DNA of 64,000 nucleotides from a virus. Lineage: Duplodnaviria > Caudoviricetes. Of this stretch, positions 60,612 to 63,852 are shown in pieces. The stretch covers positions 96,001 through 160,000 of the IMG/VR virus record IMGVR_UViG_3300020048_003360, one strand, 5' to 3'. Below the pieces are notes generated by a model. The model had not been told where the DNA came from. It made no database searches and saw only the letters and a program-made list of their open reading frames with translations. Both the position numbers and the translations under genes were made by a program. How positions within the stretch are numbered: the first letter of the stretch is position 1; each line of letters begins with the position of its first letter.

Positions 60612-60648
60612 TGGTGGGCCCGCCCGGACTCGAACCGGGGACCAAATT
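60612..60648 (-). pseudogene. 3' half of a tRNA (Ile2/Lys-like), 5' half absent
   Basis: TTGGTC CCCGG TTCGAGT CCGGG CGGGCCC A CCA; no complementary GGGCCCG strand or D arm upstream. Confidence 0.75.
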
Positions 60649-60650
60649 AT

Positions 60651-60818
60651 TTAAATTTCTACGTCAGCTCTTACAAGTGGTCTATTCATAAATTGTTCTG
60701 CAACTAATCTATGTTCATAAACATAACCTTCCATTGCTCCAGATCTTACAGCTTCTGGATGTTCAGGATTATAAACCATTCTATATTCATTAACAATACG
60801 TAATTCTTTTTTAGCCAT
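60651..60818 (-). pseudogene. Truncated HNH endonuclease fragment (55 aa)
   Basis: MAKK...VYNPEHP...GYVYEHRLVAEQFMNRPL, stopping just before the expected VHH HNH core. Confidence 0.65.
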
Positions 60819-62678: not shown

Positions 62679-62728
62679 TGGCCTCCCGTAGTGGACTCGA
62701 ACCACTGACCCCAATCTTAGAAGGATTG
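62679..62728 (-). pseudogene. tRNA-Arg(TCT) 3' fragment (positions 27-76 only)
   Basis: CAATC CTTCTAA GATTG GGGTC AGTGG TTCGAGT CCACT ACGGGAG G CCA; no D arm or 5' acceptor strand. Confidence 0.75.
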
Positions 62729-62734
62729 TTTAAT

Positions 62735-62816
62735 TGGCGGGACAGGTGCGACTCGAACGCACATACTCCAATTACGCGGTTAACGACGGCTTAGAAGGCC
62801 GTTGCGATACTGCCCC
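62735..62816 (-). tRNA. Non-canonical tRNA-Arg(TCT)-like RNA lacking the D arm, with a long variable region
   Basis: GGGGCAG/CTGTCCC acceptor stem, ACGGC CTTCTAA GCCGT anticodon arm, GTGCG TTCGAGT CGCAC T arm, G-CCA end. Confidence 0.7.
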
Positions 62817-62826
62817 AATTATACTC

Positions 62827-63078
62827 TTACCTAGCAGACGCCATACCCATGGTGGCTCTATGGATAGGTACTACATTGTCGCCGCTCTTCCTCGCCAACT
62901 CTCCATAGCAATCAGCTCTGAGCAACTCTTTCAGTCGCTCAATTGTGTCCTTATCGGAAGTTACGACCAAGTGCAAAGAAGCTGTATCATCGATGTTAGA
63001 GTCAATTACAGCTAACTGCACTGTTTCTTGCTTCGTTGAGTGTGTGGGCGCAAACATCCGTGTAAACCAGTTAAACAT
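62827..63078 (-). CDS. Hypothetical protein
   Basis: 83 aa, AGGA RBS. Confidence 0.6.
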   Translation of the reverse strand: MFNWFTRMFAPTHSTKQETVQLAVIDSNIDDTASLHLVVTSDKDTIERLKELLRADCYGELARKSGDNVVPIHRATMGMASAR

Positions 63079-63401: not shown

Positions 63402-63476
63402 TGGTGCCCAAGGTGGAAGTCGAACACCAGATCCCCGCATTACAAGTGCGGTGCATTACCATTCTGCTACAAGGGC
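63402..63476 (-). tRNA. tRNA-Thr(TGT), degenerate T and acceptor stems
   Basis: CCGCA CTTGTAA TGCGG anticodon arm, GCA/TGC D stem, CCA end; two U-U acceptor mismatches and a broken T stem. Confidence 0.65.
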
Positions 63477-63792: not shown

Positions 63793-63811
63793 TTTGTTCT
63801 CCTTATGGAAA

Positions 63812-63842
63812 TCCGGCGCTCTACCAACTGAGCTATTGAGGA
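63812..63842 (-). pseudogene. 5' fragment of an Asn-like tRNA (positions 1-31)
   Basis: TCCTCAA TA GCTC AGTTGGTA GAGC G CCGGA, then no anticodon loop and the RBS of the next ORF. Confidence 0.7.
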
Positions 63843-63852
63843 TTATTGTAAC

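What the first reader, a model, noticed from the sequence alone, without database searches (positions are those of the whole stretch)
62735..62816. D-arm-less tRNA-Arg(UCU)-like RNA with a D-loop-like sequence moved to the variable region
Seen: the acceptor, anticodon and T arms are well paired and CCA is encoded. Only about 7 nt (TATCGCA) lie between the acceptor strand and the anticodon stem, while a 21-nt variable region contains TAATTGGA, a typical D-loop string with the GG pair. It sits 6 nt upstream of a second UCU anticodon fragment. Known: D-armless tRNAs are typical of animal mitochondria, not of bacteria or phages. Inference: a rearranged tRNA that might rebuild the elbow with swapped topology and serve AGA codons (abundant here), evade host nucleases, or act as a mimic.
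Basis: partly seen in the sequence, partly recalled or inferred. Interest (0 to 1): 0.62.

Follow-up and report, generated by a model that had tools for sequence, protein, structure and literature searches.

The report
Phage arginine tRNA with rewired D-arm
This 82-base gene of a giant aquatic phage is very probably a working arginine tRNA for the AGA codon whose D-arm is not missing but split around the anticodon arm; many unrelated phages share this non-cloverleaf layout, and I found no paper that describes it.

Summary
On the minus strand at 62816..62735 lies a tRNA-like gene with a 7-bp acceptor stem, an anticodon arm (UCU), a T arm, discriminator G and encoded CCA. There is no D hairpin, and a D-loop-like UAAUUGGAGUAU sits before the T stem.

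It is not truly D-armless. In 67 distinct homologues from phage contigs, CGC (62806-62804) pairs with GCG (62777-62775) across the anticodon arm. That pairing holds in every sequence, with 4 and 3 pair types at the two variable pairs. D stem and anticodon stem therefore form one continuous hairpin, and the D loop runs straight into the T stem.

The same layout occurs in 171 distinct phage sequences:
- Arginine anticodons (UCU, CCU, UCG, ACG) always carry A after GG, the ArgRS determinant A20 (104/104).
- NAU anticodons carry U there (66/67).

Three whole phage genomes with 19-26 ordinary tRNAs have no other UCU tRNA. AGA makes up 49% of arginine codons in this phage. A truncated ordinary tRNA-Arg(UCU) lies 6 nt downstream.

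The best reading is a functional, rewired tRNA-Arg, at about 0.7. Expression, charging and decoding are untested. This scan has reported the same class before on many other genomes. Ten literature searches found no description.

The parts
62735..62816 (-). Whole rewired tRNA-Arg(UCU) gene, 82 nt including the encoded CCA
   Evidence: Sequence. Rfam tRNA 34 bits. Family model R1 scores 101 bits, single copy in the genome.
62810..62816 (-). Acceptor stem, 5' strand GGGGCAG
   Evidence: Pairs with 62739-62745. This helix is 99.4% paired across 67 homologues, and all 7 pairs show changes on both sides.
62739..62745 (-). Acceptor stem, 3' strand CUGUCCC
62807..62809 (-). U8, A9 and an invariant U (equivalent of position 22, facing U at 62774)
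   Evidence: UAU is invariant in 76 distinct members. The assignment to positions 8, 9 and 22 is inferred.
62804..62806 (-). D-stem equivalent, 5' strand CGC (takes the place of positions 23-25)
   Evidence: Pairs with 62775-62777. Alignment columns 13-44 are C-G in 67/67; columns 14-43 are UA 39, GC 15, AU 12, CG 1; columns 15-42 are CG 53, GC 7, UA 7. No unpaired cell. These rank 4th and 9th among all column pairs by mutual information.
62803..62803 (-). A opposite C 62778: equivalent of the 26-44 non-Watson-Crick layer
   Evidence: Across 76 members: A.C 42, C.A 13, C-G 8, A-U 5, U.G 5. The assignment is inferred.
62786..62802 (-). Anticodon arm ACGGC CUUCUAA GCCGU; anticodon UCU at 62795-62793
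   Evidence: Stem 93.7% paired, all 5 pairs with changes on both sides. Loop YUUCUAM in all 37 loci matched by the scan whose pattern did not fix the anticodon.
62779..62785 (-). Conserved 7-nt bulge CGUUAAC (family consensus C-R-U-Y-A-A-N) between the anticodon stem and the D-stem strand
   Evidence: C, U, A, A are invariant in 76 members. Its role is unknown. It may fill the D-stem groove as the variable loop does (inferred).
62775..62777 (-). D-stem equivalent, 3' strand GCG (takes the place of positions 10-12)
62763..62774 (-). D-loop equivalent UAAUUGGAGUAU: A14, A15, G18 G19 (62769, 62768), A20 (62767), A21, then U as the partner of A15 (position 48)
   Evidence: GGAGUAU followed 73 of the 74 family-like 5' halves found by a scan that left this part free. 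A after GG goes with Arg anticodons in 104/104, and U with NAU anticodons in 66/67. The position numbering is inferred.
62746..62762 (-). T arm GUGCG UUCGAGU CGCAC
   Evidence: 99.1% paired, 3 pairs with changes on both sides; T loop UUCGA conserved.
62735..62738 (-). Discriminator G and encoded CCA
   Evidence: The discriminator is G or A in 70/76 members, and CCA is encoded in 51/76.
62679..62728 (-). Truncated ordinary tRNA-Arg(UCU): positions 27-76 only (anticodon arm, 5-nt variable loop, T arm, acceptor 3' strand, CCA), with no 5' part
   Evidence: Aligns with canonical phage tRNA-Arg(UCU) genes from the anticodon stem to the 3' end. Weak blastn matches to annotated phage tRNA-Arg genes. 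Read as the relic of the gene that the rewired one displaced (inferred).
62827..63078 (-). Upstream small ORF (83 aa, no PHROG match) ending 10 nt before the tRNA: context of a co-oriented array of tRNAs and small ORFs

Best explanation
This is a gene for a functional elongator tRNA-Arg that reads AGA. It has all the standard tRNA parts, joined in a different order. In an ordinary tRNA the chain runs 9 > 10-13 > D loop > 22-25 > 26 > anticodon arm > variable loop > T arm. Here it runs 9 > (22-25) > 26 > anticodon arm > 7-nt bulge > 44 > (10-13) > D loop (A14, A15, G18, G19, A20, A21) > U48 > T arm. The D stem and the anticodon stem normally stack end to end; here they form one continuous hairpin. 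The D loop leaves the far end of that hairpin and enters the T stem directly. From there G18 G19 can still dock on the T loop, U8-A14 and A15-U48 can still form, and A20 is still offered to arginyl-tRNA synthetase.

Shown:
- the helices, by covariation;
- the strict conservation of the loop residues;
- the link between the A20 or U20 equivalent and the anticodon;
- the lack of any other UCU tRNA in the carrier phages examined;
- the heavy use of AGA in this phage.

Inferred:
- the 3D fold;
- processing by RNase P and 3' trimming;
- charging by the host ArgRS, and use by EF-Tu and the ribosome.

The layout can arise by tandem duplication of the D-arm-to-anticodon-arm segment followed by two deletions. 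What advantage it gives, if any, is unknown.
For: 1. Conservation. 67 distinct homologues of 85-86 nt come from phage contigs. GenBank phages of E. coli, Klebsiella, Salmonella, Serratia, Proteus and Streptomyces also carry it. The flanks are unrelated between phages.
2. Covariation. 94.5% of cells are paired, against 64.1% in shuffles. The covariation score is 0.779, against 0.191 in shuffles and at most 0.155 for slid partners. The new helix is 100% paired at its 3 core pairs, with 4 and 3 pair types at the two variable ones. All top mutual-information pairs are model helices.
3. Anticodons. A scan that left the anticodon free found only arginine anticodons in this subfamily: UCU 77, UCG 2, CCU 2.
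4. Identity elements. The bacterial Arg identity set is A20, C35, U/G36 and A/G73 (PMC9976931), and all four are present here. Across 171 distinct sequences of this architecture, Arg anticodons have A after GG in 104/104 and NAU anticodons have U in 66/67. In the second subfamily the search pattern left that base free: A in 27/27 and U in 77/78, and NAU members have discriminator A in 78/78.
5. Complementary distribution. Of 827 ARAGORN tRNAs next to members, five were called Arg(tct); three of those calls overlap the rewired element itself, leaving 2 ordinary ones. Three whole phage genomes with 26, 25 and 19 ordinary tRNAs have no Arg(tct). An annotated 15-tRNA array has no Arg gene apart from this 'tRNA-OTHER'.
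6. Codon use. AGA is 49% of Arg codons, 18.6 per 1000, in this 35% G+C phage.
7. Local context. It sits co-oriented in the tRNA array, and a truncated ordinary tRNA-Arg(UCU) lies 6 nt downstream.
Against: - There is no RNA evidence of any kind: no RNA run holds this DNA, and I found no published tRNA sequencing of a carrier phage.
- No structure or modelling shows that the rewired core fits ArgRS, EF-Tu and the ribosome.
- The conserved 7-nt bulge has no assigned role.
- Minimum-free-energy folding does not recover the short helix, and the fold is not unusually stable.
- About 10 of 73 members lack CCA and extend the acceptor stem by 12-16 bp of leader-trailer pairing. That is unusual for a tRNA precursor.
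- In the two loci that also hold an ordinary tRNA-Arg(UCU), the rewired copy lacks CCA.
- The sequences are related and were gathered with patterns, so counts are not independent events. In this subfamily the patterns fixed GGAG.
Confidence: 0.7

Rival explanations
1. It is a tRNA mimic or decoy. The RNA is made and folds like a tRNA, but its job is to soak up or mislead a host factor, such as an anticodon nuclease or another tRNA-directed defence or toxin aimed at tRNA-Arg. It does not deliver arginine to the ribosome.
For: Phage tRNAs that counter tRNA-cleaving defences are known (background knowledge, not tested here). The layout is found almost only in phages: 4 members in 185,579 prokaryote species genomes, all on metagenome-assembled contigs. 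A minority lack CCA and have a closed, extended acceptor helix. Where an ordinary tRNA-Arg(UCU) coexists, the rewired copy lacks CCA.
Against: A decoy for an anticodon nuclease has no need for the synthetase determinant A20, a purine discriminator or a 7-bp acceptor with CCA, yet these are kept. The A-or-U base after GG switches with the amino-acid class of the anticodon, which points to synthetases. Most carrier phages have no other AGA-reading tRNA.
Confidence: 0.12
2. It is a rewired tRNA that does decode AGA, and the rewiring itself is the adaptation. The changed D-arm connectivity would let the phage tRNA escape a host nuclease, modification enzyme or toxin that needs an ordinary D arm, while it stays usable by ArgRS and the ribosome. 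This is a refinement of the best explanation, not an exclusive rival.
For: The layout persists in very different phage lineages, with strict conservation of the bulge and loop. It has spread to two amino-acid classes, Arg and Ile. In this window it sits beside the relic of the ordinary gene it seems to have replaced.
Against: No defence system aimed at the D arm of tRNA-Arg or tRNA-Ile was identified here. Neutral origin by duplication and deletion, followed by horizontal spread, explains the same data.
Confidence: 0.15
3. It is a decaying tRNA pseudogene, a by-product of the recombination that also left tRNA fragments elsewhere in this array.
For: The array holds several tRNA fragments (62679-62728, 63806-63850 and the 3' half near 60612). 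ARAGORN does not call the element.
Against: At least 171 distinct sequences keep the same architecture, with compensatory changes in four helices and invariant loop residues, across unrelated phages. Pseudogenes do not covary.
Confidence: 0.02

Closest known systems
Ordinary class I bacterial and phage tRNA-Arg(UCU) (Rfam RF00005; for example the canonical genes at L021:1522-1598 and L091:4106-4178)
   Same: 7-bp acceptor stem, 5-bp anticodon stem with loop CUUCUAA, 5-bp T stem with UUCGA loop, U8, A14, G18 G19, A20, A21, purine discriminator and CCA. It sits in phage tRNA arrays. It passes Rfam's tRNA threshold (34 against 29 bits).
   Different: There is no D hairpin between positions 9 and 26. 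The two D-stem strands lie on either side of the anticodon arm, and the D loop follows the anticodon arm and leads into the T stem. A conserved 7-nt bulge replaces the variable loop. ARAGORN misses it.
D-armless mitochondrial tRNAs of animals (for example tRNA-Ser(AGY), nematode and mite tRNAs)
   Same: No hairpin at the usual D-arm place; a short connector between the acceptor and anticodon stems.
   Different: Those tRNAs have truly lost the D stem and the G18 G19 / T-loop contact, and they work with adapted mitochondrial factors (background knowledge). Here the D stem, the D loop and a canonical T loop are all kept, only reconnected. The hosts are bacteria with ordinary translation machinery.
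Circularly permuted tRNA genes of the red alga Cyanidioschyzon merolae (Soma et al. 2007, recalled from memory)
   Same: The gene order of tRNA segments differs from the order in the cloverleaf.
   Different: There the 3' half precedes the 5' half, and processing through a circular intermediate yields an ordinary mature tRNA. Here the acceptor ends are in the normal place, the swap is internal, and covariation supports the rewired fold itself. No excision could give an ordinary tRNA.
tRNA-like modules of bacterial and phage Y RNAs (YrlA) and viral tRNA-like structures
   Same: Non-standard connectivity that still gives a tRNA-like shape.
   Different: Those lack an anticodon loop used for decoding and are not in tRNA arrays (recalled from memory, not tested). 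This element keeps a standard anticodon loop restricted to Arg anticodons, plus synthetase identity elements.

Membership tests
Canonical tRNA (Rfam RF00005 cloverleaf) | Score at or above the curated gathering threshold of the tRNA covariance model | tested here: met
   34.0 bits against 29, E = 0.0025 over the window. The alignment deletes the D arm and inserts 20 nt.
Canonical tRNA (Rfam RF00005 cloverleaf) | D-arm hairpin (stem 10-13/22-25 closing the D loop) between position 9 and the anticodon stem | tested here: not met
   Only UCGCA lies there. The cmscan alignment shows 15 model positions replaced by 4 nt.
Canonical tRNA (Rfam RF00005 cloverleaf) | Acceptor stem of 7 bp, anticodon arm of 5 bp with a 7-nt loop, T arm of 5 bp with a UUCRA loop, discriminator and CCA | tested here: met
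   Sequence. Covariation in all three stems.
Canonical tRNA (Rfam RF00005 cloverleaf) | Detected by a standard tRNA finder | tested here: not met
   ARAGORN finds only tRNA-Met in the window and in the whole genome. In GenBank records the homologues are mostly unannotated, and sometimes labelled 'tRNA-OTHER' or 'tRNA-Undet'.
Rewired-D-arm phage tRNA class (defined here; no published name found) | A helix of 3 Watson-Crick pairs between the strand after U8-A9-U and a strand 3' of the anticodon arm, enclosing that arm | tested here: met
   CGC 62806-62804 pairs with GCG 62777-62775. The family pairs are 100% paired and covary.
Rewired-D-arm phage tRNA class (defined here; no published name found) | D-loop-like U-A-A-N(1-2)-G-G-N... 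directly between that strand and the T stem | tested here: met
   UAAUUGGAGUAU at 62774-62763. Model R1 scores 101 bits, against at most 38 bits for ordinary tRNAs.
Rewired-D-arm phage tRNA class (defined here; no published name found) | The base after GG matches the amino-acid class of the anticodon (A with Arg, U with Ile-type NAU) | tested here: met
   A at 62767 with anticodon UCU. Across the class: 104/104 and 66/67.
Functional arginine-accepting tRNA | Bacterial ArgRS identity set: A20, C35, U/G36, A/G73 | tested here: met
   All four are present in sequence. The identity set is taken from PMC9976931. Whether A 62767 occupies the A20 pocket in 3D is inferred.
Functional arginine-accepting tRNA | Expressed, processed, aminoacylated and used on the ribosome | not testable with these tools
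   No RNA run holds the stretch. No biochemical data were found.
Mitochondrial-type D-armless tRNA | Loss of the D stem and of the D-loop/T-loop contact residues | tested here: not met
   A D-stem equivalent is present and covaries. G18 G19 equivalents and the UUCGA T loop are invariant.
Permuted tRNA gene processed to an ordinary tRNA | 3' half upstream of 5' half, with joined acceptor ends in the precursor | tested here: not met
   The acceptor strands are at the two ends of the gene and pair directly.

The most novel reading that the evidence does not exclude
Bacterial viruses carry a widespread second tRNA architecture. It is a non-cloverleaf fold in which the D stem is made as an extension of the anticodon hairpin and the D loop feeds into the T stem. 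On this reading it is charged by the host ArgRS (and, in the sister subfamily, IleRS) and used by ordinary bacterial ribosomes. It would show that the universal cloverleaf connectivity is not required for translation in bacteria, and would give a natural scaffold for orthogonal or nuclease-resistant tRNAs.
Probability: 0.6. Interest if true: 0.9.

Novelty: new variant of a known kind. Interest (0 to 1): 0.8.

Why it matters
Outside animal mitochondria, tRNA secondary structure is treated as essentially invariant. Gene finders, identity rules and structural models all assume the cloverleaf order of arms.

A conserved, covarying and apparently synthetase-recognised tRNA with a different strand order would be a natural experiment. 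It would show which features of tRNA are topological accidents and which are required by ArgRS, IleRS, EF-Tu, RNase P, the modification enzymes and the ribosome.

It also has a practical side. These genes are mostly unannotated in well-studied phages (Felix O1-like, rV5-like, Sugarland-like and Streptomyces phages). As a result their tRNA sets, and their match to codon usage for the rare codons AGA and AUA, are currently misdescribed.

Tried and rejected
- **Variable-arm hairpin (GUUA/UAAU, alignment columns 35-38 with 45-48).** Three of its pairs never vary. One breaks without compensation in 4 sequences. The fourth has 21 of 76 unpaired or gapped cells. It would also knot with the covarying helix. 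Rejected.
- **Second 'D-armless tRNA' formed by the downstream piece borrowing the first gene's 3' strand.** Only 5 of 7 acceptor pairs would form, the fold is no better than shuffles (z = 0.05), and the piece aligns as positions 27-76 of an ordinary tRNA-Arg. Read as a truncated relic.
- **RNA evidence.** No RNA holder is listed for the stretch; the four holders are DNA runs of one aquatic study.
- **Literature.** Ten full-text searches covered D-arm and phage terms, the conserved motifs as strings, tRNA-Undet/tRNA-OTHER, permuted and non-cloverleaf. None described this layout. One search was badly posed and uninformative.
- **A scan with a degenerate 5'-half pattern.** It was useful only to show that 73 of 74 family-like 5' halves are followed by GGAGUAUG.
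- **PHROG search of the four neighbouring small ORFs.** No family found.
- **Close relatives of this phage among other carriers.** None: only the tRNA itself matches.
- **Minimum-free-energy folding.** It does not predict the short D-stem helix, so thermodynamics alone neither supports nor refutes it.

Full report
**What is there.** The window is bases 96001-160000 of a 208-kb IMG/VR virus record with 35% G+C. On the minus strand, from 62816 to 62735, the sequence reads GGGGCAG UA U CGC A ACGGC CUUCUAA GCCGU CGUUAACC GCG UAAUUGGAGUAU GUGCG UUCGAGU CGCAC CUGUCCC G CCA. Only seven bases lie where a D arm should be. A D-loop-like string sits before the T stem. Rfam's tRNA model passes its threshold (34.0 against 29 bits) only by deleting the D arm and inserting 20 nt. 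ARAGORN does not call it. Six bases downstream starts a second UCU anticodon arm (62728).

**It is conserved far beyond this phage.** Blastn against GenBank phages found the same element at 80-87% identity. It occurs in Klebsiella Sugarland-like siphoviruses, in Mydovirus and other Vequintavirinae, in Stephanstirmvirinae, and in 77-78-kb and 350-kb coliphages. A related form occurs in 130-kb Streptomyces phages. It is mostly unannotated there, and sometimes labelled 'tRNA-OTHER' or 'tRNA-Undet'. Pattern scans of IMG/VR gave 67 distinct full-length sequences of 85-86 nt, which align with a single one-base indel. The flanks are unrelated between carriers. The same pattern in one genome each of 185,579 prokaryote species gave 6 matches. 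Four are members, and all four lie on metagenome-assembled contigs.

**The D stem is not missing.** It is split around the anticodon arm. On the 67-sequence alignment, the three-base strand after U8-A9-U (CGC here, 62806-62804) pairs with a three-base strand that follows the anticodon arm and a 7-8-nt linker (GCG here, 62777-62775):
- The first pair is C-G in all 67.
- The second is U-A 39, G-C 15, A-U 12, C-G 1.
- The third is C-G 53, G-C 7, U-A 7.
- There is not one unpaired cell.

For the whole structure, 94.5% of cells pair, against 64.1% in shuffles. The covariation score is 0.779, against 0.191 in shuffles and at most 0.155 when partners are slid. In a mutual-information scan of all column pairs, the 14 highest-ranking pairs are helices of this model. 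Next to the core helix lie two more layers: an invariant U.U, and an A.C / C.A / C-G / A-U / U.G layer.

The rival reading is a small hairpin within the 'variable region'. It is not supported: its pairs either never vary or break without compensation. Minimum-free-energy folding does not find the short helix, and the fold is not unusually stable. The evidence is comparative, not thermodynamic.

**Mapping onto the ordinary tRNA core (inferred).** In an ordinary tRNA the D stem stacks on the anticodon stem, and the strand 39-43-44 continues helically into 10-13. Here that continuity is covalent. The chain runs acceptor, U8, A9, then the equivalent of 22-25, then 26, the anticodon arm, a conserved bulge (C-R-U-Y-A-A-N), the 44 equivalent, and the equivalent of 10-13. 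It then continues A14 A15 N N G18 G19 A20 G U A21, a U that can pair with A15 as position 48 does, and the T stem. All residues that build the elbow and core are invariant in 76 distinct members: U8, A14, A15, G18, G19, A21, U48 and the UUCGA T loop. A duplication of the D-arm-to-anticodon-arm segment followed by two deletions would produce this order.

**Evidence that it works as an arginine tRNA.**
- A scan that did not fix the anticodon returned 81 distinct members of this subfamily, all with arginine anticodons: UCU 77, UCG 2, CCU 2.
- The bacterial arginine identity set is A20, C35, U/G36 and A/G73, with A20 the strongest determinant for E. coli ArgRS (PMC9976931). All four are present here; the A20 equivalent is 62767. 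The discriminator is a purine in 70 of 76 members.
- Searches with a covariance model built on the family (R1; searches) and one further pattern scan uncovered a sister subfamily. It has the same wiring but a different linker (N-G-A-A-A) and loop (UAANNGGNNACAU), with 105 distinct sequences.
- In that subfamily the base after GG was left free by the pattern. It is A in 27 of 27 members with arginine anticodons (ACG, UCU, CCU, UCG). It is U in 77 of 78 members with NAU anticodons (UAU, GAU, CAU). The NAU members have discriminator A in 78 of 78, as the isoleucine set requires.
- An architecture scanner run over everything fetched gave 171 distinct sequences: A in 104/104 with Arg anticodons, U in 66/67 with NAU anticodons.

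A base in a loop that switches with the amino-acid class of the anticodon is what recognition by synthetases predicts. It is not what a nuclease decoy or a relic predicts.

**It fills the place of the ordinary tRNA-Arg(UCU).** ARAGORN called 827 tRNAs in about 100 loci around members. Most of the common phage isoacceptor species appear about 20-45 times. Arg(tct) is called five times: three calls are the rewired element itself, and only two are ordinary genes. Three whole phage genomes of 88,487, 111,103 and 146,203 bp carry 26, 25 and 19 ordinary tRNAs but no Arg(tct). The 88-kb genome covers all 20 amino acids and uses AGA for 36% of its arginine codons. The annotated 15-tRNA array of Escherichia phage VivaForever has no arginine tRNA other than this 'tRNA-OTHER'. 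In the window's own phage, AGA is the commonest arginine codon at 49%, 18.6 per 1000.

**What is particular to this window.** Directly downstream, at 62728-62679, lies the 3' two-thirds (positions 27-76, with CCA) of an ordinary class I tRNA-Arg(UCU). It aligns with canonical phage genes from the anticodon stem onward. I read it as the relic of the ordinary gene that the rewired one displaced; this is an inference. It is not a second armless tRNA: borrowing the first gene's 3' strand gives only 5 of 7 acceptor pairs, and the fold is no better than chance. The gene sits 10 nt after a small ORF, in a co-oriented array of tRNAs, tRNA fragments, small ORFs and group I ribozymes (earlier notes on this genome). 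The family model finds one copy in the genome (101 bits). The architecture scanner finds only this site and nothing in 20 shuffles.

**What remains open.**
- Nothing here shows that the RNA is made, trimmed, charged or used. No RNA run holds the stretch.
- The 7-nt bulge is strictly conserved but unexplained.
- About 10 of 73 members lack CCA, and their leader and trailer extend the acceptor stem by 12-16 bp. This could be an RNase III-type processing helix or a different use. The two loci that also keep an ordinary tRNA-Arg(UCU) have CCA-less rewired copies.
- Why the rewiring persists is unknown. Escape from a host factor that needs an ordinary D arm is possible, but no evidence supports it.
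- Counts are over related sequences gathered with patterns, so they are not independent events. The variety of pair types is the stronger argument.

**Known or new.** Ten full-text searches found no description of this layout. The library lacks most subscription journals, so a description may exist. After I had reached the reading above, I looked up this scan's earlier notes. The same rewired Arg and Ile tRNA class has been reported by other agents on more than a hundred other genomes. They found no paper either. Later checks rated the observation high and the functional claim at about 30/100, and reported that part of one such claim fell, without saying which part. I therefore keep the functional claim at about 0.7. 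I state plainly that tRNA finders do not uniformly miss these genes: Rfam's model passes, and some records carry 'tRNA-OTHER'. I classify it as a new variant of a known kind: a tRNA with a new, conserved strand order.

Noticed in passing
L109:5504-5587, L228 (G025:C1:74540-74623), L229-L345 (many): A sister subfamily has the same rewired D-arm layout but linker N-G-A-A-A and loop UAANNGGNNACAU, with 105 distinct sequences. Most have anticodons UAU, GAU or CAU, with U after GG and discriminator A (isoleucine-type). The rest have arginine anticodons with A after GG.
   Followed up: partly
L005 (phage FH3), L004 (phage A7_1), L008, L013, L021, L023, L046, L050, L059, L074: About 10 of 73 rewired tRNA-Arg genes lack CCA. 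Their 5' leader and 3' trailer pair for 12-16 bp in continuation of the acceptor stem, giving a helix of about 20 bp capped by the tRNA body. This may be an RNase III-type processing signal or a different use.
   Followed up: partly
window 62679-62728 (-): The 3' two-thirds of an ordinary tRNA-Arg(UCU) (positions 27-76 with CCA), without a 5' part, 6 nt after the rewired gene. Probably the relic of the displaced ordinary gene.
   Followed up: yes
window 63405-63476 (-): tRNA-Thr(UGU) scores 41.7 bits with Rfam but is missed by ARAGORN. Its acceptor stem has two adjacent U.U mismatches (GCCCUUG / CUUGGGC).
   Followed up: no
window 63806-63850 (-): A 5' tRNA fragment (acceptor strand UCCUCAA, a perfect D arm GCUC AGUUGGUA GAGC, the 5' anticodon-stem strand). 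It runs straight into a Shine-Dalgarno sequence and the ATG of a 100-aa ORF (63792-63490) with no PHROG match.
   Followed up: no
window 60612-60698 (-): Weak tmRNA-model match (13.5 bits). It consists of a T arm plus acceptor 3' strand ending CCACCA, and is another isolated tRNA 3' piece in the array.
   Followed up: no
L001:2871-2955 (-) (Klebsiella phage Roth37): A second gene annotated 'tRNA-OTHER' has a normal-looking D arm and T arm but about 30 nt of extra sequence around the anticodon region. It is a different kind of odd tRNA from the one studied here.
   Followed up: no
L068:3786-3870 and L068:4085-4169; L113:12997-13082 and L113:13346-13431: Some phage contigs carry two rewired arginine tRNAs a few hundred bases apart with different anticodons (UCG + UCU; CCU + UCU). 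This points to duplication and anticodon switching within the class.
   Followed up: partly
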